A program made the translations under genes and the position numbers. Shown piece after piece: positions 3,981 to 23,443 of a DNA stretch of 64,000 nt. Source of the DNA: Escherichia coli (lineage in GTDB: Bacteria > Pseudomonadota > Gammaproteobacteria > Enterobacterales > Enterobacteriaceae). The stretch is from the NCBI RefSeq assembly GCF_003334785.1, contig NZ_QOWV01000012.1. The stretch is one strand, 5' to 3'. Below the pieces are notes generated by a model. It did not search any database. It was not told where the DNA came from and saw only the letters and a list, made by a program, of their open reading frames with translations. The stretch's first letter is position 1. The number at the start of each line of letters is the position of its first letter.

Positions 3981-5003
3981 ATGTCTACGATGAATGTTTT
4001 AATTTGCCAGCAGCCGAAAGAATTAGTCTGGAAACAACGCGAGATACCTATTCCGGGTGACAATGAAGCATTAATAAAAATTAAGTCTGTCGGGATTTGC
4101 GGTACCGATATTCATGCCTGGGGTGGAAATCAACCATTTTTTAGTTATCCACGTGTTTTAGGCCATGAAATATGTGGGGAGATTGTTGGGCTGGGTAAAA
4201 ATATTGCTGATCTTAAAAATGGTCAGCAAGTTGCTGTGATCCCTTATGTTGCCTGTCAGCAATGCCCGGCGTGTAAAAGCGGGCGTACCAATTGCTGTGA
4301 AAAAATTTCAGTCATTGGCGTGCATCAGGATGGCGGTTTTAGTGAGTATTTGAGCGTGCCGGTGGCGAACATTTTGCCCGCAGACGGTATTGACCCGCAG
4401 GCGGCCGCATTGATTGAACCTTTCGCTATTAGCGCTCATGCGGTGCGTCGCGCAGCCATTGCTCCCGGCGAGCAGGTGCTGGTGGTCGGGGCGGGGCCAA
4501 TCGGTCTGGGCGCGGCGGCAATCGCTAAAGCTGATGGCGCACAGGTGGTGGTGGCGGATACCAGTCCAGCGCGCCGTGAACATGTGGCAACGCGTCTGGA
4601 GTTGCCCGTGCTGGACCCGTCAGCCGAAGATTTTGACGCGCAGCTGCGGGCGCAGTTTGGTGGTTCGCTGGCGCAGAAAGTGATCGACGCGACAGGTAAT
4701 CAACATGCGATGAATAACACCGTGAATTTGATTCGTCACGGCGGCACGGTGGTATTTGTCGGCCTGTTTAAAGGTGAGTTGCAGTTCTCCGATCCGGAAT
4801 TCCATAAAAAAGAAACGACGATGATGGGTAGCCGCAACGCCACGCCGGAAGATTTTGCTAAAGTCGGTCGACTGATGGCGGAAGGAAAAATCACTGCTGA
4901 CATGATGTTAACCCATCGCTATCCGTTCGCCACGCTGGCAGAAACCTACGAGCGCGATGTGATTAACAATCGTGAGTTGATTAAGGGTGTAATTACTTTC
5001 TGA
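3981..5003 (+). CDS. lgoD: Zn-dependent medium-chain dehydrogenase, L-galactonate 5-dehydrogenase
   Basis: GHE..G zinc-ADH motif and GxGxxG NAD fold (VVGAGPIGLG); start chosen at MSTMNVL giving 340 aa. Confidence 0.85.
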   Translation: MSTMNVLICQQPKELVWKQREIPIPGDNEALIKIKSVGICGTDIHAWGGNQPFFSYPRVLGHEICGEIVGLGKNIADLKNGQQVAVIPYVACQQCPACKSGRTNCCEKISVIGVHQDGGFSEYLSVPVANILPADGIDPQAAALIEPFAISAHAVRRAAIAPGEQVLVVGAGPIGLGAAAIAKADGAQVVVADTSPARREHVATRLELPVLDPSAEDFDAQLRAQFGGSLAQKVIDATGNQHAMNNTVNLIRHGGTVVFVGLFKGELQFSDPEFHKKETTMMGSRNATPEDFAKVGRLMAEGKITADMMLTHRYPFATLAETYERDVINNRELIKGVITF

Positions 5004-5142
5004 TAAGGCGAGATTATTAAAGTTGCCATGCAGCGTCCGGGGAAGTGTTGGGCGCTGTTTTTTTTCTGTTTCTCAATGATGTTTTGTAGGCCGGAGAAGA
5101 TGTGTAGGTCGCACCTTATGCGACCTACACATCAGTCAGAAA

Positions 5143-7434
5143 TTACCCTTCACGTTCCACAACTTTAATTTCCACCATGCCGATCCCGAGCTTACGCGGC
5201 GAGTGTCCGAGGATATTCCCTTCGTTGGTTGAGACAGGTTCCGGCGGCACAATTACCAGTGTGTCGGCATCGGTTGGGTTATCGAAATGCAGTGTGGTGG
5301 TGGTCACTTCATTGCCCAGCACAAGAGTTTGTTCTTCATTGCCTACGCGTACCGGAATAGGACGGCTGGCGTTATTGCCGTATGCTTTGGCGGTAATCAC
5401 CAGGTCAAATTTCTTCGGCAGCGGATGCTTGTACTCGATTTTTACTTCATCGCCCAGCTGCGCGTTGGACCAGCGGCCCCACGACTCTGGACGGGAAATC
5501 CCACTAAACTGTTTCACCTCTTCTGGCGCACCGGCGACGTTGAAGATGAAACTGTCGGCTTTGTAGCGAATATCGTTATCAACAATTTTCAGCGTATCGA
5601 CATTGCCTTTATAACGCGCCATGTCGATGACCGTATCTTTAAATGCCGTTTTGCCCTGCCATGTTGTTTTGTCAACATGCTGAACAATTTGCTGACCGCC
5701 AAGCTGCCCTTGCGAGACACACCAGTCGGTGGAGAGTGCCAGTTCCGGAGCCCAGAGTTGTGCCATCTTATAGCAACGGTCAACCCAGACGAAATTGTCG
5801 CGTGGAGCGAAATCGGCCAGCTGGAAACGCAGCGGTGCTGAGTATTCGCTTTCCGGCAGCGGTTCCACGCGTTTGTCTGAAACCCGCAACAGCAGCGGCA
5901 AACGGAAATGGCTACCCGAGAAGGCAATTATGTTTTTCTGCTGGTCGATGGTGAACTCTTTCATCTCTTTAGGGAATTTCCACAGGCGGATGATATCCGG
6001 CTTCCACGCCAATGTTTTCTCTTTGATATTGAGGAAGATTTCCGACATTGACTGCCCGGATAAACTGCTACGACCAAGTCCGAGATAGTTATCGCCACCG
6101 AGAATGTCCAGCACCGTCGCGCCGTTATCCATCGTGTTACGCTTCACTGCCAGCGTCTCTTGCTGCGGCTTGTCGCCACGAATGACAAAAAACAGGTTAT
6201 TGCGATCCTGCTTATTGAGGTATTTCCACGCCGTGTTGTTCATCGCTAAATGGTCAGAAGAGACGACGATGACGGTATCTTTAAACCACGGTGACGCTTT
6301 GATTTTGTTGATAAACGCCGCGATATTCTCCTGGCTGCAACTTACCGCGCTGAATGACTGGTTCGGCTTACCGTCAAGATCATATTTTTTGCGGTTACAG
6401 GTACGCGAGATAAAACCATCCGGGTGATGGGTATCGACTGTCAGGGTAAACAGTGAGAATCGCTGACCTGAGCGGGAAAGCTCTTCAAACTTTTTCCACG
6501 CTTCATCGAGAACGGTATCGTCGTAGAATCCCCAGTCGTTGCGATAGTGCGGGTCGGCCACCACGCTTTTCAGCTCTTCTGAGCCGTATAAGTGGTCGAA
6601 GCCATGCGACTTCAGGAACACATCTTTACCGGCAAAACGCAGATTCGCGCCCTGCACGAAATAGTTCTGATAACCCGAGTTTTTCAGGATATCGCCCAGA
6701 CAGATGTTCTGCGGGAAGAAGCTGGAGACAGAGGCGGAGGCGTTGCCTTCAAAGGGGGCAAACAGCGGTATGCCGCACTGAGAAGCCACCATGCCCGCAA
6801 TCGTGTAATCCGTTCCTGGCAGCTGCTGCGTGTGGCTGAAATCCAGGCCTTCATTTTTCAACGCGCCCAGTTCAGGCGTGAGATCCGGGAAAGCTTCGTT
6901 ATCAAAATAGGTCCGCTCGAGACTTTCGCCGTAGATATAAACCAGGTTGAGTTTCGGGTCAGGGATAGTTTTCGACGGCTCTTTATAATAAGCCGCAAAG
7001 TCCGGGTCGCCATCGCGTGACTGGGATTTCACCAGTTCCGTTATCTGACGAAATGCCGGGCTGGCGTCCACCGAACCCAGCGCCAGTAAGAGCGCCAGCA
7101 GGCTGTAACCAAAATGGTGCGGATGATGGCGACGACGGCGCAGGATCCAGCCCAGCGCACCGAACACCGCTGTCAGCCCCAGCACAATGCCGATACCCGG
7201 CAGGATGTATTTGCTGACGCCAGCACCGGTCAGGCTGTTGGTTAAGGTATAGAGAACCGCGTCGTTAATACCAGCGCCAGTAAAATAGTCGCTGGCAAAC
7301 AGGGTGATATTTAAAACGACAAATAGCCCCAGCACCGTTAATGTGGCTGCAAACCACCAGGTGTTACGTCCCGCTTTCCATGCGTAAATCAGCACAGAGG
7401 CGAGAAAAAGGGCGAAAGAGAGTAGTTCTGACAA
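5143..7434 (-). CDS. opgB: Phosphoglycerol transferase I (osmoregulated periplasmic glucan biosynthesis)
   Basis: 763-aa ORF, N-terminal TM segments plus sulfatase-like domain, matches OpgB/MdoB. Confidence 0.9.
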
Positions 7435-7687
7435 CGGGCGATCCTCACTAAACCGGGCCGTTTAGCCAACGTTTAAGCTTTTTGAGAAGCACAATGTAAT
7501 GGCGTCGCCATATTGCTGCAATTCTAGTGTCAAAAAAATGCGATGTTGTTAGGAATTAGTTTATAAACAGACTTTTTTGATCGCGGTCGCTTCCCGTGTA
7601 ACAGGGGGAAAACCGTCCAGGAGCAGGGAAAAGGGCAGGAGAGAGCCGCGTCAGCCGGGTAACAGCTAAAACGCGGCGTTTCGCGGT

Positions 7688-8182
7688 TCAGGAAATGAAG
7701 TTCAGCCCCTGCTTTAACACCAGATCGCAGGCTTTGGTTTTCACCTTTTCTGCCAGCGGAGTCGTTCCGATGTTATCCAGATTGAGTTGCTGACCATCTT
7801 TGGTTTTCAGCAAACCCTGAATGCCATCCAGATAGTTGGTGTCTTCTTTTTGTTCTTCACTGTTCAGGCCCAGCTTTTCCAGCACCTGGTTCTTGATGTT
7901 TTCGGCATCGGTTACCGACGCCAGCTTTTGCTTCGCGCAGTATTGCAGAATGCCTGCGGCGTTGTTCATGTTATCTGCGCTTAAGGCCTGGTTCCCGCTG
8001 CTAAGCAAGTTAGTTAATGACGCGAGCGACCAACCGCCTTCCTGTGTCGTGCTGTTTTGGTTGCCAAGTTCGCTGGCGGCGCTGGAGAGCGCATCTTTCC
8101 AGGACGCAGCATGCACCCCAGTGGAAATTAATGCGCTGGCGGCAATGGCACAGCACAGAAGATGTTTAACAGTTTTCATCAT
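7688..8182 (-). CDS. yjjA: DUF2501 periplasmic protein with signal peptide
   Basis: 164-aa ORF with cleavable signal peptide, located upstream of dnaC-dnaT as in E. coli. Confidence 0.8.
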   Translation of the reverse strand: MMKTVKHLLCCAIAASALISTGVHAASWKDALSSAASELGNQNSTTQEGGWSLASLTNLLSSGNQALSADNMNNAAGILQYCAKQKLASVTDAENIKNQVLEKLGLNSEEQKEDTNYLDGIQGLLKTKDGQQLNLDNIGTTPLAEKVKTKACDLVLKQGLNFIS

Positions 8183-8230
8183 CATTACTCAAGGTGGAAT
8201 TGTGTCGCAGTATACCGCCAGAAACGGGGA

Positions 8231-8968
8231 TTAATACTCTTTACCTGTTACCCGGCTACGGTAGCTATCCCAGTTGAAGATCACCCACAAACTGTTACCC
8301 AGGCGCATACGGTCCATCACGCGTTCGCCCAGCAACTTGGTCATCTCTTCCATATTACTGTTGGTCAGCATCCCGGTTGGGCGTTTGGAAGAAGAGCGGC
8401 GATCGACGATCTGGTTGATGATCACTTTTTCGTATTTCGATTCGGTCTGCACGCCGATCTCATCGATCACCAGCAGATCAACGTTGCTCAGATCGTTAAG
8501 CAGTTGTTCTTCGCTGGTACCGCTATTCCTGAAGGTATCTTTCATCGCCGACATAATATCGGCCACGGTGATGATCAATACGGATTTACCGCGTAGCAGC
8601 AGCTCGTTGCAGATTGCCGCCGCCAGATGGTTTTTGCCGGTTCCTGGCTTACCAGAAAAGATGAAGCTGGCGATGTTGCCGTCAAACTCTTCGACATACT
8701 GGCGCGCTTTGCTTAACGCATTCATCTGCCCTTCACACTCAACGCGATAGTTCTCAAAGGAGCAGTTCTGATGCAGTGGACGAATACCGGAGCGGTTAAA
8801 GGTGCGCTGCATTTTCATCGCCCGATTTTCACGTTCGAGAGCGGCGGAGCGGATCGCCCCTTGTTCTTTCTGCCAGGCCAGTAGCTCTTCACCCGTTTTG
8901 AATGCAGGTTTGATATGGGCAGGCATCATTTTTTGCAGGCGTTGCATCAGGTCGCCAACGTTTTTCAT
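8231..8968 (-). CDS. dnaC: DNA replication helicase loader DnaC
   Basis: 245 aa, Walker A GKPGTGKNHL, sequence matches DnaC. Confidence 0.95.
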   Translation of the reverse strand: MKNVGDLMQRLQKMMPAHIKPAFKTGEELLAWQKEQGAIRSAALERENRAMKMQRTFNRSGIRPLHQNCSFENYRVECEGQMNALSKARQYVEEFDGNIASFIFSGKPGTGKNHLAAAICNELLLRGKSVLIITVADIMSAMKDTFRNSGTSEEQLLNDLSNVDLLVIDEIGVQTESKYEKVIINQIVDRRSSSKRPTGMLTNSNMEEMTKLLGERVMDRMRLGNSLWVIFNWDSYRSRVTGKEY

Positions 8969-8970
8969 CG

Positions 8971-9510
8971 TTACCCTCTGAATCCTGGTGGAATTTGGCT
9001 GTCAGGTTCGCTGACCGTATTCACATCTCGTTTCGGCAGTCCGCCGTTGCTGGCACGACCGATTTGCAGGCTGCGCGCCAGTTTTTGTTGCCACTGCACA
9101 TGGTGAAAGACTTTACCTTCCGCCTGCCAGTAGGCAATGAATGAGGCCAGTTCTTCGGTGGTCACCGGCTCTCTTAGCGCCACGCCCCATAGCGCCGCCA
9201 GGCGGATAAAGTCGGCATCGGGTTGCCAGTCCGGATACATGGCGAATTTCCCCATGGGGACAGCAACGGGAGCGGCTTGCGGTTCCTGATAGAGTTGATC
9301 GTCCAGAGCGACATCGCTTCCCGGACGCGCCAGCTTTTCTTCCAGCGCCAGCAGTTCAGCCAGGCGTGCAGGCGTGACGGCATAAAACGCCGGGGCATTG
9401 TTAGCAAATACGGCAACCACACCGCCTTCAGCTTTTGCCAGAACGGTTTGGTGATCGTGTACCAGGGCGTCAATACCAACGACGTCCGGGGTCAAAACTC
9501 TGGAAGACAT
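8971..9510 (-). CDS. dnaT: Primosomal protein DnaT
   Basis: 179 aa starting MSSRVLT, immediately upstream of dnaC with 2-bp gap (operon). Confidence 0.9.
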
Positions 9511-9616
9511 ACTGTTTCTCAAATATGGAACGATGAACGAGAAGGGAGATAACTTTTATAGTAACACACGGAGGAGAGGAGGCTGTCTCTCATCCGTGTG
9601 CTTAAGCGAGGCAATT

Positions 9617-10090
9617 TTATACGCGAGGGCGCTTGCGGTACAACCATAATCCAGGAATGGAAAGACCGATGGATAACGCACCAACAATCGATGAAGCTGT
9701 AAGAAAGTTGGTTAACAGGGTAATCATCAACGGTTCGCTGTAACCTAACTGGCTGATTTTTACCGCCGAAATCATTGCGGTATAAGCCGATATGCCCGGG
9801 AACATAGGGATAACGGCCGCCACGGTAAACACTTTCGGATGCGCCAGATACCAGCGCGACCATTGAATACCAATGGTGCCGACCAGCATAGAAGCCATAA
9901 AAGTTGACCACTCAATATTCAGCCCGCTGGTCATTAAGATCATTCGTGAACCATGGCCAATCGCGCCAAGCAGCGCACACCAGCGTAACGCCCGCACGGG
10001 AACGTTGAACACCATCGCAAAGCCGACCGCTGGAATGGCGGCGAGGATCATATCCTGCGCCAATGCAAACAGAAACTCGATCACACCCAT
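9617..10090 (-). CDS. yjjB: ThrE-family membrane protein, C-terminal-type half (YjjB)
   Basis: 157-aa hydrophobic ORF overlapping yjjP stop by 10 bp. Confidence 0.8.
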
Positions 10091-10851
10091 CCGCGTAGCC
10101 CCCAAATCGTCAGTGCCATCACTACGCCGACGCAGGTAGCCAGCGTCAGCAGACTGGCGATCGCCCAGCGTGCCAGTCCGGTATTGATGTGGCCTTTAAA
10201 CATATCGGCGACGGCATTAATCAACGGAAAGCCCGGCACCAGCAGCAGAACGCTGGCGGCCATCGCAATGGTGGGTGTATCGCTGAAAGTGGGGAGTTGC
10301 AAAAGCAATCCGGAAATGGTGGTGGCGGCGAAAGCGGTAAGGCAAAAGTTGATCTGTGGATGAAGATGACGTTGTGCCAGCAGCTGGCGGATATACATCG
10401 CGGTCGTACTGGCAAAGAAGGTGATGACGGCACCATCCCAGCCACCGTTATTGAGTTTACAGAAACAGGCGCAAGAAAGGCCAACCATTAAGGCTACCAG
10501 CCATCTTGGGTAACGTAATGGCTGAATTTGGCTAAATCGTTTCTCTACGCCTTTGTAATCCAGCAGATGATGCTCCGCAAGAATCACAATGTGCTGGACT
10601 TCAGTCACCACATGCATATTAATGCCGCGATCGTGATTTTTTCGTGTCGATGTCAGGCATTGCCCATCTTTAATAGTTGTCAGCACTATGGCGTTCGAAG
10701 AGATAGAACTTTCGACGCTGTCCATTCCCAACGCCCGACCCAGTCGTGAGGAAAGCTCATCAACCAACGCGCTTTCCGCACCATGTTGCAAAAGAAATAA
10801 TCCACACTGGATACAAAGCCGCGTTACGGCTCGCTGTTGCTCAGTTTGCAT
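10081..10851 (-). CDS. yjjP: ThrE-family inner membrane protein (YjjP)
   Basis: Start chosen at MQTEQQRAV giving 256 aa; multi-TM. Confidence 0.8.
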
Positions 10852-11471
10852 AACTCGCCCTTTGTCATAGACGTGCTGCGTATTGTTCAGATAATGAGAA
10901 TCCATTTGTATCATGAAGCACGGTTGTTTTGCGGTAGGTTAAGATCAAAATTGCGCTGATTAATCCTGGTTATCGGGACAAGCTCGGTGATAAAAAGCGA
11001 ATTATCTCTCGCCGCAAACAAACTATCACATGAATATTATCACTATAATGAATTTATTGTTTTAGCCTTTACGGGTCAGGATAATAGATAGCTGGGCGCG
11101 TTTTTTAGTGTTAACAAGTTAAAATCATCAGATTTTATTGAATAAATATTGATTGTGTGATTCCCGCATTCTGCGGGAAGGGATATCATTTAATTATAAA
11201 TTAAATGAATGTGATTTCTGTTTTTCATTAAGTATTCCTAACAACTTAATGTAGATATTTTAAATGTCTCCAGGCTATTTCACCAGGTTATCATTTGATG
11301 CTAACCTTCTGACACATGCAGTGGAGTTGTTGTGCAGCAGGAGTATGCTGATATGAAAGTGAATGCTAAGGATAATTTATTCGCTTAATCTATTAATTTG
11401 CTGGAAACATTTAAGGAATGAATATCCTGAATAAACCATCATAATTTTTAGACAGTGGATGTGGAGGAAAT

Positions 11472-12197
11472 ATGTTGCCAGGATGCTGCAAAAATGGAAT
11501 TGTTATCAGTAAAATACCTGTTATGCAAGCAGGGTTAAAAGAGGTCATGAGGACTCACTTCCCTGAATATGAAATAATATCCAGCGCCTCTGCGGAGGAC
11601 CTTACCTTATTACAATTACGTCGTTCCGGATTAGTCATTGCTGATTTAGCCGGTGAAAGTGAAGATCCACGTTCTGTTTGTGAACATTATTATTCTTTAA
11701 TCTCACAATATCGGGAAATTCACTGGGTTTTCATGGTGTCACGCTCCTGGTATTCCCAGGCAGTAGAACTGCTCATGTGCCCTACGGCGACGTTATTGTC
11801 TGATGTTGAACCCATTGAGAATCTGGTCAAGACCGTACGTTCCGGCAATACGCACGCAGAGCGTATCAGCGCCATGCTGACCTCTCCGGCAATGACTGAA
11901 ACTCATGATTTTAGCTATCGCTCCGTCATTCTCACTCTTTCAGAGCGCAAGGTACTGCGGCTATTAGGTAAAGGATGGGGCATCAACCAGATAGCTTCAT
12001 TGCTTAAGAAAAGTAATAAAACTATCAGCGCCCAAAAAAACAGTGCGATGCGTCGACTGGCAATTCACAGCAACGCTGAAATGTATGCATGGATAAATAG
12101 CGCGCAGGGTGCAAGAGAACTTAACTTGCCTTCTGTTTATGGAGATGCCGCAGAATGGAACACAGCCGAATTAAGAAGAGAAATGTCGCACTCATAG
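11472..12197 (+). CDS. yjjQ: LuxR/FixJ-family transcriptional regulator
   Basis: 241 aa with C-terminal LuxR-type HTH; preceded by a long AT-rich region. Confidence 0.85.
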
Positions 12198-12832
12198 AAA
12201 AATGCGTCATGAGTAGTATCGGTATTGAGAGTTTATTCAGAAAGTTTGCGGGCAACCCTTATAAGCTCCATACCTATACCAGTCAGGAGTCATTTCAGGA
12301 TGCCATGTCGCGGATCTCGTTTGCGGCGGTCATTTTTTCTTTTTCTGCCATGAGAAGTGAGCGCAGAGAGGGATTATCTTGCCTGACTGAACTGGCGATT
12401 AAGTTTCCGCGTACCCGGCGTTTAGTTATTGCGGATGATGATATTGAAGCTCGGCTGATTGGTTCATTGTCGCCATCACCGCTGGACGGTGTATTAAGTA
12501 AAGCGTCAACGCTGGAGATTTTTCATCAGGAACTCTTTTTGTCATTAAATGGTGTACGTCAGGCGACCGACCGACTGAACAATCAGTGGTACATTAACCA
12601 AAGCCGGACGCTAAGCCCGACGGAGAGAGAAATATTGCGCTTTATGTCGCGTGGCTACTCAATGACACAAATTGCCGAGCAGCTTAAACGCAATATCAAA
12701 ACGATCCGCGCGCATAAATTTAATGTGATGTCGAAACTGGGCGTCAGTTCTGATGCAGGATTGTTGGAGGCCGCAGATATTCTGTTATGTATGCGGCATT
12801 GCGAAGCAAGTAATGTGTTGCATCCCTATTAA
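12155..12832 (+). CDS. bglJ: LuxR-family transcriptional activator BglJ
   Basis: 225 aa, overlaps yjjQ 3' end, C-terminal LuxR HTH. Confidence 0.85.
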
Positions 12833-16445: not shown

Positions 16446-17123
16446 ATGAAGTGGGACTGGATTTTCTTTGATGCCGATGAAACGCTGTTTACCTTTGACT
16501 CATTCACCGGCCTGCAGCGGATGTTTCTTGATTACAGCGTCACCTTTACCGCTGAAGATTTTCAGGACTATCAGGCCGTTAACAAGCCACTGTGGGTGGA
16601 TTATCAAAACGGCGCGATCACTTCATTACAGCTTCAGCACGGGCGTTTTGAGAGCTGGGCCGAACGGCTGAAAGTTGAAGCAGGCTTGCTTAACGATGCC
16701 TTTATTAATGCGATGGCGGAAATCTGCACGCCGCTGCCGGGCGCGGTTTCTCTGCTTAACGCCATTCGTGGCAACGCCAAAATCGGCATCATCACCAACG
16801 GCTTTAGCGCCTTGCAGCAAGTGCGTCTGGAACGCACGGGCCTGCGTGATTACTTCGATTTGCTGGTGATTTCCGAAGAAGTTGGCGTTGCCAAACCGAA
16901 TAAGAAAATTTTCGATTATGCGCTGGAACAGGCGGGCAATCCTGACCGTTCACGCGTGCTGATGGTTGGCGACACTGCCGAGTCCGATATTCTCGGTGGC
17001 ATCAACGCCGGGCTTGCGACCTGCTGGCTGAATGCGCACCATCGCGAGCAACCAGAAGGCATCGCGCCCACCTGGACCGTTTCTTCGTTGCACGAACTGG
17101 AGCAGCTCCTGTGTAAACACTGA
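16446..17123 (+). CDS. yjjG: HAD-family pyrimidine 5'-nucleotidase
   Basis: 225 aa, N-terminal DxDET HAD motif (FFDADETLF). Confidence 0.85.
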
Positions 17124-20089: not shown

Positions 20090-20210
20090 ATTTCAGACCA
20101 TTAAGAAAATTTTATCCAAAGCCAGTCCAGCGGACTGGCTTTTGCGGTTTTAGCGAATAATAAATTGCGTTACTTTGTCATTCTTTCACAACAAAAACAG
20201 GAAGGCAGAG

Positions 20211-21284
20211 GTGGGGCAGCGAATACCTGTAACGCTTGGTAATATTGCGCCGTTGTCGCTAAGGCCGTTCCAGCCTGGACGAATAGCTCTGGTGTGCGAA
20301 GGCGGCGGACAGCGTGGAATTTTCACGGCTGGCGTGCTGGATGAGTTTATGCGCGCGCAGTTTAATCCTTTCGATCTTTATCTCGGCACATCTGCCGGGG
20401 CGCAGAACCTCTCGGCGTTTATCTGTAATCAGCCCGGTTACGCGCGCAAAGTCATCATGCGCTATACCACAAAACGCGAATTTTTCGATCCATTGCGCTT
20501 TGTCCGTGGAGGAAATCTTATCGATCTCGACTGGCTGGTGGAGGCCACCGCAAGCCAGATGCCGTTGCAAATGGATACCGCCGCGCGGTTGTTTGACAGC
20601 GGCAAATCGTTTTATATGTGCGCCTGTCGTCAGGATGACTACGCGCCTAATTACTTTTTACCAACCAAACAAAACTGGCTGGATGTGATTCGCGCCTCCA
20701 GTGCGATACCTGGCTTTTATCGTAGCGGAGTGTCGCTGGAAGGCATTAACTACCTGGATGGCGGGATCAGTGATGCGATTCCGGTTAAAGAGGCGGCAAG
20801 GCAGGGCGCTAAAACGTTGGTCGTCATCCGCACTGTGCCGTCACAAATGTACTACACGCCGCAGTGGTTCAAACGCATGGAACGCTGGCTGGGTGACAGT
20901 AGCCTGCAGCCGCTGGTCAATCTGGTGCAGCATCATGAAACCAGCTATCGTGACATTCAGCAATTTATTGAGAAACCACCGGGCAAGCTGCGGATATTCG
21001 AAATTTATCCACCGAAACCATTACATAGTATCGCGCTTGGCAGTCGGATTCCGGCGCTGCGTGAAGACTATAAACTTGGGCGTTTATGCGGTCGTTATTT
21101 CCTCGCCACGGTTGGCAAGCTATTAACTGAAAAAGCGCCGCTTACCCGCCATCTGGTGCCAGTGGTGACGCCGGAATCGATCGTTATTCCGCCTGCGCCA
21201 GTCGCCAACGATACGCTGGTTGCCGAAGTGAGCGATGCTCCGCAGGCGAACGACCCGACATTTAACAATGAGGATCTGGCTTGA
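20211..21284 (+). CDS. yjjU: Patatin-like phospholipase family protein
   Basis: GTG start preceded by AGGAAGG RBS; GTSAG serine hydrolase motif and DGG catalytic Asp motif. Confidence 0.8.
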   Translation: MGQRIPVTLGNIAPLSLRPFQPGRIALVCEGGGQRGIFTAGVLDEFMRAQFNPFDLYLGTSAGAQNLSAFICNQPGYARKVIMRYTTKREFFDPLRFVRGGNLIDLDWLVEATASQMPLQMDTAARLFDSGKSFYMCACRQDDYAPNYFLPTKQNWLDVIRASSAIPGFYRSGVSLEGINYLDGGISDAIPVKEAARQGAKTLVVIRTVPSQMYYTPQWFKRMERWLGDSSLQPLVNLVQHHETSYRDIQQFIEKPPGKLRIFEIYPPKPLHSIALGSRIPALREDYKLGRLCGRYFLATVGKLLTEKAPLTRHLVPVVTPESIVIPPAPVANDTLVAEVSDAPQANDPTFNNEDLA

Positions 21285-22063
21285 TTTGCCGTTTTATCGA
21301 TACCCACTGCCATTTTGATTTCCCGCCGTTTAGTGGCGATGAAGAGGCCAGCCTGCAACGCGCGGCACAAGCGGGCGTAGGCAAGATCATTGTTCCGGCG
21401 ACAGAGGCGGAAAATTTTGCCCGCGTGCAGGCGTTAGCGGAAAAATATCAACCGCTGTATGCCGCATTGGGGTTGCATCCGGGGATGTTGGAAAAACATA
21501 GCGATGTGTCTCTTGATCAGCTACAGCAGGCGCTGGAAAGGCGTCCGGCGAAGGTGGTGGCGGTGGGGGAGATCGGTCTGGATCTCTTCGGCGACGATCC
21601 GCAATTTGAGAGGCAGCAGTGGTTACTCGACGAACAACTGAAACTGGCGAAACTCTACGATCTGCCGGTGATCCTGCATTCACGGCGCACACACGACAAA
21701 CTGGCGATGCATCTTAAACGCCACGATTTGCCGCGTGCTGGTGTTGTCCACGGATTTTCTGGCAGCCAGCAACAGGCTGAACGGTTTGTACAGCTGGGCT
21801 ACAAAATCGGCGTAGGCGGTACTATCACCTATCCACGCGCCAGTAAAACCCGCGATGTCATCGCAAAATTACCGCTGGCATCGTTGTTGCTGGAAACCGA
21901 CGCGCCGGATATGCCGCTCAACGGCTTTCAGGGGCAGCCTAACCGACCGGAACAGGCTGTGCGGGTGTTTGACGTGCTTTGCGAGTTGCGCCCGGAACCA
22001 GAAGATGAGATTGCCGAAGTGTTGCTTAATAATACGTATGCGTTGTTTAGCGTTAGTGGGTAG
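21281..22063 (+). CDS. yjjV: TatD-family metal-dependent hydrolase/DNase
   Basis: N-terminal DTHCHFDF motif; 4-bp overlap with yjjU. Confidence 0.85.
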   Translation: MICRFIDTHCHFDFPPFSGDEEASLQRAAQAGVGKIIVPATEAENFARVQALAEKYQPLYAALGLHPGMLEKHSDVSLDQLQQALERRPAKVVAVGEIGLDLFGDDPQFERQQWLLDEQLKLAKLYDLPVILHSRRTHDKLAMHLKRHDLPRAGVVHGFSGSQQQAERFVQLGYKIGVGGTITYPRASKTRDVIAKLPLASLLLETDAPDMPLNGFQGQPNRPEQAVRVFDVLCELRPEPEDEIAEVLLNNTYALFSVSG

Positions 22064-22078
22064 TTTACCCTTCGTAGG

Positions 22079-22579
<501 letters not shown>

Positions 22580-22590
<11 letters not shown>

Positions 22591-23443
22591 GCGCCGGAAA
22601 TATCAACCGGCCCACCCCGCGCACCTTTAATGCATCAGCCAACGGCTCAACGTCTTCCGGCGTGGCGCTCGCCCAGCTTTGCGCCTCGCCATACACGCCG
22701 TGGGCATGAAACGCGTTCAGGCGTACCGGAACATCGCCAAGTCCCTTGATAAACGCCGCCAGTTCTTCGATGTGTTGCAAATAATCCACCTGGCCAGGGA
22801 TTACCAGCAAACGCAGTTCCGCCAGCTTGCCGCGCTCTGCCAGCAAACAGATGCTGCGCTTAATCTGCTGATTATCGCGTCCGGTTAATTGTTGATGACA
22901 TTCGCTACCCCATGCTTTGAGATCGAGCATTGCGCCGTCACACACCGGGAGTAATTTTTCCCAGCCGGTTTCGCTCAACATGCCGTTACTGTCCACCAGA
23001 CAGGTGAGATGGCGCAGTTGCGGATCGTTTTTGATAGCAGTAAACAGCGCCACTACAAACGGCAGTTGGGTCGTGGCTTCGCCGCCGCTTACCGTTATCC
23101 CTTCAATAAACAGCACCGCTTTGCGGACATGGCTAAGCACTTCGTCCACGCTCATGGATTGCGCCATCGGCGTGGCATGTTGCGGACACCTCTTCAGGCA
23201 GGTATCACACTGCTCGCAGACCGCAGCGTTCCACACCACTTTGCCGTCAACAATCTGCAACGCCTGATGCGGACACTGTGGCACGCACTCTCCGCAATGA
23301 TTACAGCGCCCCATCGTCCACGGATTGTGACAGTTTTTGCAGCGCAGATTGCAGCCCTGCAAAAACAGAGCCAGACGACTGCCTGGCCCGTCAACGCAGG
23401 AGAAGGGGATAATCTTACTGACTAAAGCGCATCTGCTGTTCAT
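22580..23443 (-). CDS. yjjW: Glycyl-radical enzyme activating protein (radical SAM, with two ferredoxin-type 4Fe-4S motifs)
   Basis: CNLRCKNC radical-SAM motif plus [12 protein letters not shown] and [12 protein letters not shown] cluster motifs. Confidence 0.85.

What the first reader, a model, noticed from the sequence alone, without database searches (positions are those of the whole stretch)
20211..22063. Translationally coupled patatin-like phospholipase and TatD-family hydrolase of unknown role
yjjU has intact GTSAG and DGG patatin motifs and overlaps yjjV (TatD-like, HCH motif) by 4 bp. A lipase-plus-nuclease pairing is reminiscent of effector modules in defence systems, yet this sits in conserved core context, so a housekeeping role is more likely. 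Function is unassigned to my knowledge.
Basis: inference. Interest (0 to 1): 0.25.

Follow-up and report, generated by a model that had tools for sequence, protein, structure and literature searches.

The report
E. coli yjjUV lipase–nuclease operon
This is the already annotated yjjU–yjjV operon of E. coli, a core-genome pair of a lipid-cleaving and a DNA-trimming enzyme that became neighbours only in the enterobacterial lineage; nothing found here points to anti-phage defence.

Summary
The window is E. coli chromosome. yjjU (20211-21284) has intact patatin motifs. yjjV (21281-22063) is a TatD-family hydrolase with the HxH motif. The two genes overlap by 4 bp (TTGA).

Both are annotated core genes, present in 5420 of 5426 complete E. 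coli genomes. RegulonDB lists them as the yjjUV transcription unit, and published work shows induction through YdeO>GadE. YjjV has a crystal structure (1ZZM) and weak 3'-exonuclease and AP-endonuclease activity in vitro.

The pair is adjacent in all 83 Enterobacterales species sampled, and the NTGA overlap is kept in 77 of 80 Enterobacteriaceae and in Proteus. Outside that order the pairing is absent. None of 14 YjjU-family genes has a TatD neighbour, and none of 6 YjjV-clade genes has a patatin neighbour. In Aliivibrio the order is prfC-yjjV-nupC-deoCABD, so yjjU was inserted upstream of an older yjjV.

YjjU relatives are tied to lipid metabolism. One is fused to a lysophospholipase-L2-like domain, and others sit among acyltransferase or beta-oxidation genes.

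Defence-family models (CBASS lipase, QatD) score far below their cut-offs, and no defence genes lie within 20 kb.

Verdict: a known, ordinary, stress-induced housekeeping operon. Low interest.

The parts
20120..20153 (+). ytjA terminator hairpin (AGCCAGTCC-AGC-GGACTGGCT followed by a T-rich run). It separates ytjA from the yjjU promoter region.
   Evidence: Read directly from the sequence. The hairpin is conserved in 16 of 18 Enterobacteriaceae aligned. The simple terminator scan missed it because the T run is interrupted.
20162..20177 (+). Conserved upstream motif AAATTGCGTTACTTTG, about 35-50 nt before the yjjU start. It is a candidate promoter or regulator site for the yjjUV unit.
   Evidence: This is the best-conserved block of the ytjA-yjjU spacer in 18 species. 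No experimental mapping was done here, and the sigma-70 consensus scan found nothing upstream of yjjU.
20199..20205 (+). Shine-Dalgarno sequence AGGAAGG of yjjU.
   Evidence: It is conserved as AGGAA(G/A)G in most species aligned.
20211..21284 (+). yjjU, a cytoplasmic patatin-like (Ser61-Asp183 dyad) acyl hydrolase with a DUF6363 C-terminal domain and a disordered acidic tail (residues 332-357). It has a GTG start.
   Evidence: Sequence and annotation. Pfam domains. Ser61, Asp183, Gly41, Gly63, Gly184 and Pro191 are invariant in 106 family members. The AF2 model has pLDDT 90 and a patatin fold by Foldseek. There is no hydrophobic segment (maximum KD19 of 1.1).
21270..21274 (+). Shine-Dalgarno sequence GAGGA of yjjV, embedded in the last codons of yjjU (N-E-D).
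   Evidence: It is kept as GAGGA in most of 80 species, with a few variants (AAGGA, GAGGG, GAGAG, GAGAA), and is AAGGAG in Proteus.
21281..21284 (+). TTGA overlap of the yjjV start codon and the yjjU stop codon.
   Evidence: An NTGA overlap is present in 77 of 80 Enterobacteriaceae species: GTGA in 67, TTGA in 5 and ATGA in 5. Proteus has ATGA. Yersinia has TAATG or a 20-nt gap, and Xenorhabdus has a 238-bp spacer.
21281..22063 (+). yjjV, a group II (HxH) TatD-family two-metal hydrolase with a TTG start.
   Evidence: Sequence and Pfam. NF008522 equivalog at 568 bits against a 481 cut-off. About 95% identical to PDB 1ZZM. The metal ligands His9, His11, Glu97, His133, His158, Glu205 and Asp207 are present (with PMC4176340).
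22081..22568 (.). REP/BIME array (4.8 copies of a 101-bp unit) filling the yjjV-yjjW convergent spacer. It marks the 3' boundary of the operon.

Best explanation
The locus is the known yjjUV operon, a bicistronic unit specific to Enterobacterales.

**Origin (shown by comparative genomics).** A patatin/DUF6363 acyl-hydrolase gene (yjjU) occupies the prfC-yjjV interval only in Enterobacterales, together with osmY and, in the Enterobacteriaceae and Yersinia loci, ytjA. The TatD-family gene (yjjV) is older. Elsewhere in Gammaproteobacteria it sits directly after prfC and upstream of nupC-deoCABD.

**The two products (fold and catalytic residues shown; substrates inferred).** Both are separate cytoplasmic hydrolases.
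- YjjU most likely deacylates (lyso)phospholipids.
- YjjV is a two-metal 3'-exonuclease and AP endonuclease acting on nucleic acid.

**Expression (literature plus inference).** The genes are co-transcribed from a promoter downstream of the ytjA terminator that responds to the YdeO>GadE acid-stress cascade. yjjV is probably translated by ribosomes that terminate on yjjU and restart at the overlapping weak NTG codon, helped by the embedded GAGGA.

**Nature of the link (inferred).** The connection between the two enzymes is co-expression during acid or stationary-phase stress, which damages both membrane lipids and DNA (acid-driven depurination creates AP sites). It is not a shared substrate or a defence mechanism.
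For: **Identity and core status.**
- The region is 100% identical to E. coli chromosomes, and the pair is present in 5420 of 5426 complete genomes.
- All neighbours within 20 kb are housekeeping genes.

**Operon and regulation (literature).**
- RegulonDB lists the unit yjjUV. Both genes are induced equally by YdeO, and the induction is lost without gadE (PMC4222967).
- GadE/GadX regulate yjjU, and the yjjU knockout was implicated in general acid resistance (PMC4918353).

**Coupling.**
- The NTGA overlap is kept in 77 of 80 species, and 72 of those 77 use a non-ATG start.
- A purine-rich Shine-Dalgarno (mostly GAGGA) is kept in the last yjjU codons.
- Proteus keeps an ATGA overlap.

**Origin of the pairing.**
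- The genes are adjacent in 83 of 83 Enterobacterales species.
- Aliivibrio wodanis has holD-rimI-prfC-yjjV-nupC-deoCABD with no yjjU.
- Halomonas has prfC-yjjV.
- Aeromonas has yjjV-nupC-deoC.
- All of these TatD genes score best against the YjjV model NF008522.
- None of 14 YjjU-family genes elsewhere has a TatD neighbour.

**YjjU chemistry.**
- Ser61, Asp183 and the glycine loop are invariant or nearly so across 106 homologues.
- The model has a confident patatin fold.
- The Aliivibrio fischeri homologue is fused to a domain matching lysophospholipase L2 over its full length (251 bits).
- The E. eligens homologue sits among lysophospholipid acyltransferase, ACP, acyl-adenylate ligase and GDSL hydrolase genes.
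- The A. baumannii homologue lies next to fadA/fadB-like genes.

**YjjV chemistry.**
- Crystal structure 1ZZM exists and all metal ligands are present.
- It shows weak 3'-exonuclease and AP-endonuclease activity (PMC10085689).
- A Mitsuaria relative overlaps a deoxyinosine glycosylase gene.
- A Ralstonia relative lies between lolD and comEC, with recJ nearby.

**Selection.** dN/dS is 0.08 for yjjU and 0.13 for yjjV.
Against: - No lipase assay of YjjU was found in the searchable literature, so its substrate is inferred.
[quoted passage not shown] NCBI names it only 'metal-dependent hydrolase'.
- The triple tatD yjjV ycfH mutant behaves like the single tatD mutant (same paper), so no phenotype specific to YjjV is known.
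- Conservation of a stop-start overlap is weak evidence for selected coupling. Changing it requires coordinated mutations, so it tends to persist by default.
- The junction RNA has no significant secondary structure (z=0.38).
- The acid-damage rationale for co-expression is my inference and has not been tested.
- The consensus scan found no sigma-70-like promoter upstream of yjjU.
Confidence: 0.6

Rival explanations
1. The adjacency is a historical accident with no functional meaning. On this view yjjV belongs functionally with the nucleoside and deoxyribose catabolism genes downstream (nupC, deoCABD), perhaps releasing nucleotides from DNA or RNA for salvage. yjjU simply landed upstream and captured yjjV into its transcript.
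For: - prfC-yjjV-nupC-deoCABD is the gene order in Aliivibrio.
- yjjV-nupC-deoC is the order in Aeromonas, Yersinia and Xenorhabdus.
- In E. coli the dNMP 5'-nucleotidase gene yjjG lies 3 kb upstream.
- Outside Enterobacterales the two families never co-localise (0 of 14 and 0 of 6 contexts).
- In Xenorhabdus a 238-bp palindrome-rich insert separates the genes without loss of either.
Against: - The overlap and the embedded Shine-Dalgarno sequence have been kept across Enterobacteriaceae and in Proteus.
- Both genes respond equally to YdeO/GadE, so co-expression is real, whatever its origin.
- The link between yjjV and the deo genes rests on gene order only, and the deo genes are not co-induced in the cited data.
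- This reading overlaps with the best explanation and differs only on whether the co-expression is adaptive.
Confidence: 0.25
2. The two enzymes act in one pathway on a common, non-DNA substrate. For example, YjjU removes acyl chains from a phospholipid or lipid-linked nucleotide, and YjjV, as a metal-dependent phosphoesterase, cleaves the remaining phosphodiester.
For: - YjjV is a poor nuclease in vitro.
- TatD enzymes belong to the broad TIM-barrel metal-dependent hydrolase group (PMC4176340).
- The tight coupling implies co-production of the two proteins.
Against: - YjjV-clade genes exist without any patatin partner in Vibrionaceae, Aeromonas, Halomonas, Pseudomonas, Ralstonia and Mitsuaria.
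- Some of those relatives sit next to DNA-repair or DNA-uptake genes.
- YjjU-family genes exist without a TatD gene nearby in all 14 other contexts examined.
- 3'-exonuclease and AP-endonuclease activities of YjjV are detectable.
- YjjV was captured as an RNA-binding protein (bioRxiv 10.1101/2023.07.03.547468).
Confidence: 0.07
3. The pair is a domesticated anti-phage or abortive-infection effector module. A membrane-degrading lipase and a DNA-degrading nuclease would be released together upon infection.
For: - Patatin lipases and TatD nucleases are effectors in CBASS and Qat systems.
- The best structural matches of the YjjU model include the CBASS effectors CapV and CapE.
- There are weak hits to the CBASS_lipase and QatD models.
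Against: - CBASS_lipase scores 25 bits against a cut-off of 200, and the match covers only the glycine loop. QatD scores 103 bits against 230.
- The structural matches have TM scores of only 0.52-0.59 at 15-20% identity, no better than the match to PlpD.
- There is no cyclase, sensor or qatABC gene within 20 kb.
- The pair is present in essentially every E. coli at one fixed locus and is inherited vertically across the order.
- dN/dS is low.
- A 2026 E. coli defence screen treats such ubiquitous CBASS-like and Qat-like operons as housekeeping false positives (PMC13069673).
- Hits in the phage collection are short chromosomal fragments or mislabelled bacterial records.
Confidence: 0.03

Closest known systems
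E. coli K-12 yjjU-yjjV (b4377-b4378; RegulonDB unit yjjUV; YjjV = PDB 1ZZM)
   Same: This is the same locus. The flanking genes are identical. YjjV is about 95% identical to the 1ZZM sequence. RefSeq gives the same gene names for a 100%-identical strain.
   Different: There are only allelic differences from K-12, about a dozen substitutions in YjjV. The REP array downstream is longer or shorter in other strains.
CBASS effector phospholipases CapV / CapE
   Same: They share the patatin fold with a Ser-Asp dyad. They are among the top Foldseek matches of the YjjU model.
   Different: - Identity is 15-17% and TM score 0.52-0.59.
- The NCBIfam CBASS_lipase model gives 25 bits against a cut-off of 200.
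- There is no CD-NTase neighbour.
- The gene is core and vertically inherited rather than mobile.
- YjjU carries DUF6363, a marker of a separate, widespread subfamily.
E. coli TatD and YcfH (paralogous TatD-family 3'-exonucleases / AP endonucleases)
   Same: They share the TIM-barrel two-metal hydrolase fold. YjjV shares the HxH group II motif with YcfH. All three show 3'-exonuclease and AP-endonuclease activity in vitro (PMC10085689).
   Different: - YjjV scores 568 bits on its own equivalog model, against 100 bits on the YcfH model and 110 bits on the TatD model.
- Its activity in vitro is much weaker.
- Its conserved neighbours are prfC and the deo cluster (plus yjjU in Enterobacterales), not the tat operon or the holB/tmk region.
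QatD nuclease of the Qat (Gao_Qat) anti-phage system
   Same: It is a member of the TatD family.
   Different: YjjV scores 103 bits against a cut-off of 230. No qatA, qatB or qatC genes are nearby. Genuine qatD genes on Rhizobium plasmids are only 30% identical and sit next to qatC.
Lysophospholipase L2 (PldB) pathway of phospholipid deacylation
   Same: An Aliivibrio fischeri YjjU homologue is fused to a PldB-like domain. This suggests sequential removal of the two acyl chains of a phospholipid.
   Different: In E. coli pldB is a separate gene elsewhere in the genome. No biochemical link between YjjU and PldB has been shown.

Membership tests
Patatin-like phospholipase (PF01734) | Glycine-rich oxyanion loop G-G-x-R/K-G | tested here: met
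   GGGQRG at residues 31-36. Gly31 and Gly32 are conserved in at least 90% of 106 homologues.
Patatin-like phospholipase (PF01734) | Nucleophile elbow G-x-S-x-G and catalytic Asp in D-G-A/G | tested here: met
   GTSAG at 59-63 and DGG at 183-185. Ser61, Gly63, Asp183 and Gly184 are invariant in alignment A1.
Patatin-like phospholipase (PF01734) | Patatin alpha/beta fold | tested here: met
   The AF2 model has pLDDT 90 and pTM 0.86. The Foldseek matches at E<=0.001 are all patatin/cPLA2-type lipases: CapV, CapE, PlpD, patatin, iPLA2-beta and VipD, with probability 1.0.
Patatin-like phospholipase (PF01734) | Lipid acyl-hydrolase activity | not testable with these tools
   No assay of YjjU was found in the searchable literature.
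YjjU subfamily (Patatin + DUF6363) | Both Pfam domains present in this order | tested here: met
   Patatin at residues 27-195 and DUF6363 at 234-305. The same architecture is found in homologues from Bacillota and Acinetobacter and in all close hits.
CBASS phospholipase effector (CapV; NF041079) | Score above the curated model cut-off | tested here: not met
   25.1 bits against a cut-off of 200. Only residues 27-64 align. The PADLOC phospholipase effector models score at most 33 bits over the same stretch.
CBASS phospholipase effector (CapV; NF041079) | Operon with a CD-NTase cyclase; patchy, mobile distribution | tested here: not met
   No cyclase within 20 kb. The gene is present in 5420 of 5426 E. 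coli genomes at one locus.
TatD family (PF01026), YjjV equivalog NF008522 | Full-length match above the curated cut-off | tested here: met
   PF01026 matches model positions 1-253 of 253 with E=4e-74. NF008522 scores 568 bits against a cut-off of 481.
TatD family (PF01026), YjjV equivalog NF008522 | Group II HxH motif and conserved metal ligands | tested here: met
   His9 and His11 (DTHCH), Glu97, His133, His158, Glu205 and Asp207 are all aligned to structures of group II enzymes. Residue roles are taken from PMC4176340.
TatD family (PF01026), YjjV equivalog NF008522 | Mg2+-dependent 3'-exonuclease / AP endonuclease activity | not testable with these tools
   From the literature only: the activity is weak but detectable (PMC10085689).
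QatD (Qat anti-phage system; NF041926) | Score above the cut-off and qatABC neighbours | tested here: not met
   103 bits against a cut-off of 230. PADLOC QatD scores 93 bits. There are no qat genes in the neighbourhood.
Translationally coupled gene pair | Stop-start overlap with a Shine-Dalgarno sequence inside the upstream gene, conserved across species | tested here: met
   TTGA at 21281-21284 and GAGGA at 21270-21274. An NTGA overlap is present in 77 of 80 species, and the Shine-Dalgarno is kept in most of them. Proteus has ATGA with AAGGAG.
Translationally coupled gene pair | Downstream translation depends on upstream translation | not testable with these tools
   This needs a reporter experiment. 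No occluding RNA structure is predicted (z=0.38), so any coupling would work by termination and reinitiation.

The most novel reading that the evidence does not exclude
YjjU and YjjV could form a physical, stoichiometric two-enzyme assembly that the Enterobacterales ancestor built from two unrelated housekeeping genes. This would be a latent membrane-plus-nucleic-acid degradation module, switched on only under extreme stress (acid shock, or possibly phage infection). It would be analogous to defence effectors but fixed in the core genome. My evidence does not exclude a protein-protein interaction or a conditional toxic activity, because neither could be tested here.
Probability: 0.04. Interest if true: 0.6.

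Novelty: already known. Interest (0 to 1): 0.12.

Why it matters
As it stands, this locus matters little. The genes, the operon, its regulators and the YjjV structure are all in the databases and the literature.

The modest value added here is for two 'y-genes' that are still poorly understood:
- **A dated origin for the operon.** yjjU was inserted upstream of an older prfC-yjjV-deo arrangement at the base of Enterobacterales. This argues against reading lipase-plus-nuclease adjacency as a functional module or as a defence signature.
- **A testable hypothesis for YjjU.** It may be a cytoplasmic phospholipase A acting upstream of a lysophospholipase, as suggested by the PldB-like fusion and the lipid-gene neighbourhoods.
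- **A testable hypothesis for YjjV.** It may process AP sites after acid-driven depurination, or feed nucleoside salvage through the deo genes.

The locus is also a useful negative control for defence-discovery pipelines that are seeded on patatin or TatD domains.

Tried and rejected
- **Genome-collection scan with the single YjjU protein.** It was good for conservation of the junction but useless for distant synteny. Distant contexts had to come from representative proteins with the look-up of encoding contigs and from the plasmid collection, which contains chromids and mislabelled chromosomes.
- **Two distant homologues (P0199, P0255).** Both sat on contigs of about 1 kb with no neighbours.
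- **A YjjU-TatD fusion protein.** None was found among 269 family members. The only fusion found was to an alpha/beta hydrolase.
- **RNA secondary structure at the yjjU/yjjV junction.** It is not different from shuffled sequence, so structure-mediated coupling is rejected.
- **Consensus promoter and terminator scan.** It found no promoter upstream of yjjU and missed the obvious ytjA terminator.
- **Phage collection.** The hits are 3-4 kb unannotated fragments 86% identical to YjjU, the same identity as the Salmonella chromosomal records in that list. The rest are Salmonella genomic records filed as phage, or 254-kb 'Acinetobacter phage' records carrying the chromosomal Acinetobacter homologue. 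There is no evidence that the pair is phage-borne.
- **Supplementary tables of the 2026 defence-operon screen.** They are not held as text.
- **Literature searches by b-number and STM number.** They gave only a sigma-54 ChIP table.
- **Searching 'DUF6363'.** No paper was found.
- **A linked-chain AlphaFold run to test for a YjjU-YjjV complex.** I considered this and dropped it, because the tool returns no inter-chain confidence.
Full report

Yes. ORF listing and direct reading show yjjU from GTG 20211 to TGA 21282-21284 (357 aa). Its patatin motifs are GGGQRG (31-36), GTSAG (59-63) and DGG (183-185).

yjjV runs from TTG 21281 to TAG 22061-22063 (260 aa) and begins MICRFIDTHCHFD. The start and stop codons share TTGA (21281-21284). 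A GAGGA Shine-Dalgarno sequence lies 6 nt upstream, inside the last yjjU codons.

Megablast shows that the window is E. coli chromosome, 100% identical to several strains. RefSeq annotates exactly these CDSs as yjjU (patatin-like phospholipase family protein) and yjjV (metal-dependent hydrolase). The region is present in 5420 of 5426 complete E. coli genomes.

The domain assignments are strong:
- Patatin (E=3.8e-23) plus DUF6363 (E=3.6e-22) for YjjU.
- Full-length TatD_DNase (E=4e-74) for YjjV.
- The YjjV equivalog model NF008522 scores 568 bits against a cut-off of 481.

**2. What is already known?**

- RegulonDB lists the transcription unit yjjUV. Both genes are induced to the same extent by YdeO overproduction, and this induction is lost without gadE (PMC4222967).
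- GadE and GadX regulate yjjU, and a yjjU knockout was implicated in general, not glutamate-dependent, acid resistance (PMC4918353).
- A yjjU point mutation arose in an evolved PTS-minus strain, and deleting the gene changed growth rate by about 23% in either direction depending on background (PMC3469383).
- YjjV is PDB 1ZZM. It is a group II (HxH) TatD paralogue with weak 3'-exonuclease and AP-endonuclease activity. The tatD yjjV ycfH triple mutant is viable and sensitive to H2O2, like the tatD single mutant (PMC10085689; PMC4176340).
- YjjV was also recovered as an RNA-binding protein (bioRxiv 10.1101/2023.07.03.547468).
- No biochemical study of YjjU was found.

**3. Anatomy and conservation inside Enterobacterales**

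I obtained loci from 80 Enterobacteriaceae species. All keep prfC-osmY-yjjU-yjjV-(yjjW-yjjI)-deoC, with yjjV immediately after yjjU.

The junction is an NTGA overlap in 77 of 80 species: GTGA in 67, TTGA in 5 (all Escherichia) and ATGA in 5. The other three start 1 to 7 nt further on. The embedded purine-rich Shine-Dalgarno (mostly GAGGA) is kept in most species.

More distant families behave as follows:
- Proteus mirabilis keeps an ATGA overlap with AAGGAG.
- Yersinia enterocolitica has TAATG or a 20-nt gap.
- Xenorhabdus has a 238-bp palindrome-rich insert between the genes.

The yjjV start is non-ATG in 72 of the 77 overlapping junctions, and yjjU itself starts with GTG. This fits low-level expression and reinitiation-type coupling. 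The junction RNA is not structured (z=0.38).

Upstream, the ytjA terminator hairpin and a block AAATTGCGTTACTTTG are conserved.

Both genes are under purifying selection, with dN/dS of 0.08 and 0.13. They accumulate amino-acid changes 4 to 7 times faster than the flanking prfC and deoC genes. This is typical of dispensable core genes.

Stop-start overlaps are common. Five same-strand pairs overlap within this 43-kb stretch.

**4. Does the pairing extend further?**

No.

*From the YjjU side.* An exhaustive HMMER search found 3245 relatives. Identity drops from 64% or more in Enterobacterales to 46% or less elsewhere. I examined fourteen independent contexts of Patatin+DUF6363 genes outside the chromosomal Enterobacterales locus. 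They were:
- an unidentified GC-rich bacterium;
- Endozoicomonas-like and Shewanella-like contigs;
- Aliivibrio fischeri;
- two Pseudoalteromonas;
- an unidentified marine contig;
- Vibrio campbellii;
- Photobacterium;
- Acinetobacter baumannii;
- a conjugative Proteus plasmid;
- Ligilactobacillus salivarius pMP118;
- Bacteroides finegoldii;
- [Eubacterium] eligens.

None has a TatD gene within the flanks.

*From the YjjV side.* I examined six TatD genes whose best NCBIfam model is the YjjV model. None has a patatin neighbour.
- Aliivibrio wodanis has holD-rimI-prfC-yjjV-nupC-deoCABD.
- Halomonas organivorans has prfC-yjjV.
- Aeromonas caviae has yjjV-nupC-deoC.
- The Pseudomonas veronii gene follows cra.
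- The Ralstonia gene sits between lolD and comEC, with recJ nearby.
- The Mitsuaria gene overlaps a deoxyinosine glycosylase gene by 8 bp.

The simplest history is that prfC-yjjV-(nupC)-deo is ancestral. On this reading, osmY and yjjU, with ytjA in most of the lineages sampled, came to occupy the prfC-yjjV interval at the base of Enterobacterales, and yjjV was captured into the yjjU transcript.

**5. What do the proteins do?**

*YjjU.*
- Ser61, Asp183 and neighbouring glycines are invariant in 106 diverse homologues.
- The AF2 model is confident (pLDDT 90) apart from the acidic tail at residues 332-357. It has a patatin fold.
- The closest solved structures are CapV, CapE and PlpD, at TM scores of only 0.52-0.59 and 15-20% identity.
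- There is no hydrophobic segment, so the protein is predicted to be cytoplasmic.

Three independent associations point to lipid acyl metabolism:
- The A. fischeri homologue is fused to a domain that matches lysophospholipase L2 over nearly its whole length (NF008019, 251 bits).
- The E. eligens homologue lies among two lysophospholipid acyltransferase genes, an ACP gene, an acyl-adenylate ligase gene and a GDSL hydrolase gene.
- The A. baumannii homologue follows fadA/fadB-like genes.

*YjjV.* It retains all metal ligands of group II TatD enzymes, and its nuclease activities are published. Its relatives' neighbours are a DNA glycosylase, ComEC, RecJ and the deo genes, which fits a nucleic-acid substrate.

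**6. Defence hypothesis**

- The CBASS lipase model scores 25 bits against a cut-off of 200, over the glycine loop only. QatD scores 103 bits against 230. PADLOC hits are equally weak.
- No cyclase, sensor, qat gene or other defence gene lies within 20 kb.
- The locus is core and vertically inherited.
- A 2026 screen of E. coli operons carrying defence domains noted that CBASS-like and Qat-like operon families present in almost every strain are housekeeping false positives (PMC13069673).
- Genuine qatD genes found in the plasmid search are only 30% identical and sit beside qatC.

**7. Conclusion**

The finding is a correct description of a known, ordinary operon. The most likely mechanism is co-expression of two independent hydrolases under acid or stationary-phase stress control, with reinitiation coupling of yjjV to yjjU.

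The idea that acid damage to lipids and DNA (depurination creating AP sites) explains the co-expression is my inference. Gene-order history shows that the lipase-nuclease pairing is an Enterobacterales-specific acquisition, not a conserved functional module.

Interest is low. The residual novel possibility is a physical complex or a conditional self-destruct module, which I put at about 4%.

Noticed in passing
window 22081-22568: There are 4.8 tandem copies of a 101-bp REP/BIME unit between the convergent yjjV and yjjW genes. Four copies match Rfam RF02564 (naRNA4, nucleoid-associated ncRNA) above the gathering score (74-84 bits against 59.5). The mechanical ORFs with repeated 'MPDATL...' peptides in this stretch are artefacts of the repeat. 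The spacer length varies from about 110 to about 1120 bp among Escherichia loci.
   Followed up: partly
window 21875-21891 (+) and 23358-23374 (-): Sigma-54-type -24/-12 motifs lie inside coding sequence. CTGGCATCGTTGTTGCT is in yjjV on the sense strand, and CTGGCTCTGTTTTTGCA is in yjjW. They correspond to intragenic sigma-54 ChIP-seq sites IS56 and IS57 reported for K-12 (PMC4591121). Their function is unknown.
   Followed up: partly
L110/L111 (Aliivibrio wodanis) 4201-12777; L103 (Aeromonas caviae) 6995-10726; L112 (Halomonas) 4129-6813: The YjjV-clade TatD gene is linked to prfC and/or to nupC-deoCABD (nucleoside and deoxyribose catabolism) in several gammaproteobacterial orders that lack yjjU at this locus. 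In E. coli the dNMP 5'-nucleotidase gene yjjG also lies nearby (window 16446-17123). This hints at a role for YjjV in nucleic-acid salvage.
   Followed up: partly
L087/L088 6001-7917 (Aliivibrio fischeri): A 638-aa natural fusion joins a YjjU-type Patatin+DUF6363 module to a lysophospholipase-L2 (PldB)-like alpha/beta hydrolase domain. This is a Rosetta-stone hint that the family acts in phospholipid deacylation.
   Followed up: yes
L106 6007-7399 (Mitsuaria sp. 7): A YjjV-clade TatD gene overlaps by 8 bp a gene annotated as DNA-deoxyinosine glycosylase. A glycosylase that creates AP sites is therefore paired with a TatD enzyme reported to cut them.
   Followed up: no
L102 5986-10080 (Ligilactobacillus salivarius pMP118): A YjjU-family gene is convergent with pflA-pflB (a glycyl-radical enzyme and its activase). 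This echoes E. coli, where yjjUV is convergent with yjjW-yjjI (a glycyl-radical activase and enzyme). It is probably coincidence, since many Enterobacteriaceae lack yjjWI at this site.
   Followed up: no
L081 7153-7390 (Xenorhabdus sp. KK7.4): A 238-bp palindrome-rich insert, which looks like a small repetitive extragenic element, has separated yjjU from yjjV. Both genes remain intact.
   Followed up: no
phage collection records OR845353.1, OR850981.1, CAKLQH020000002.1: Records filed as phages carry yjjU-like sequence. Two are unannotated fragments of 3-4 kb about 86% identical to YjjU, the same identity as the Salmonella chromosomal records in that hit list. Others are 254-kb 'Acinetobacter phage MD-2021a' records encoding the same patatin homologue as A. 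baumannii chromosomes. These are probably host DNA or mis-binned contigs.
   Followed up: no
window 7654-8148 equivalent (L094 7654-8148): In the 100%-identical reference strain, yjjA is annotated as a pseudogene with an internal stop.
   Followed up: no
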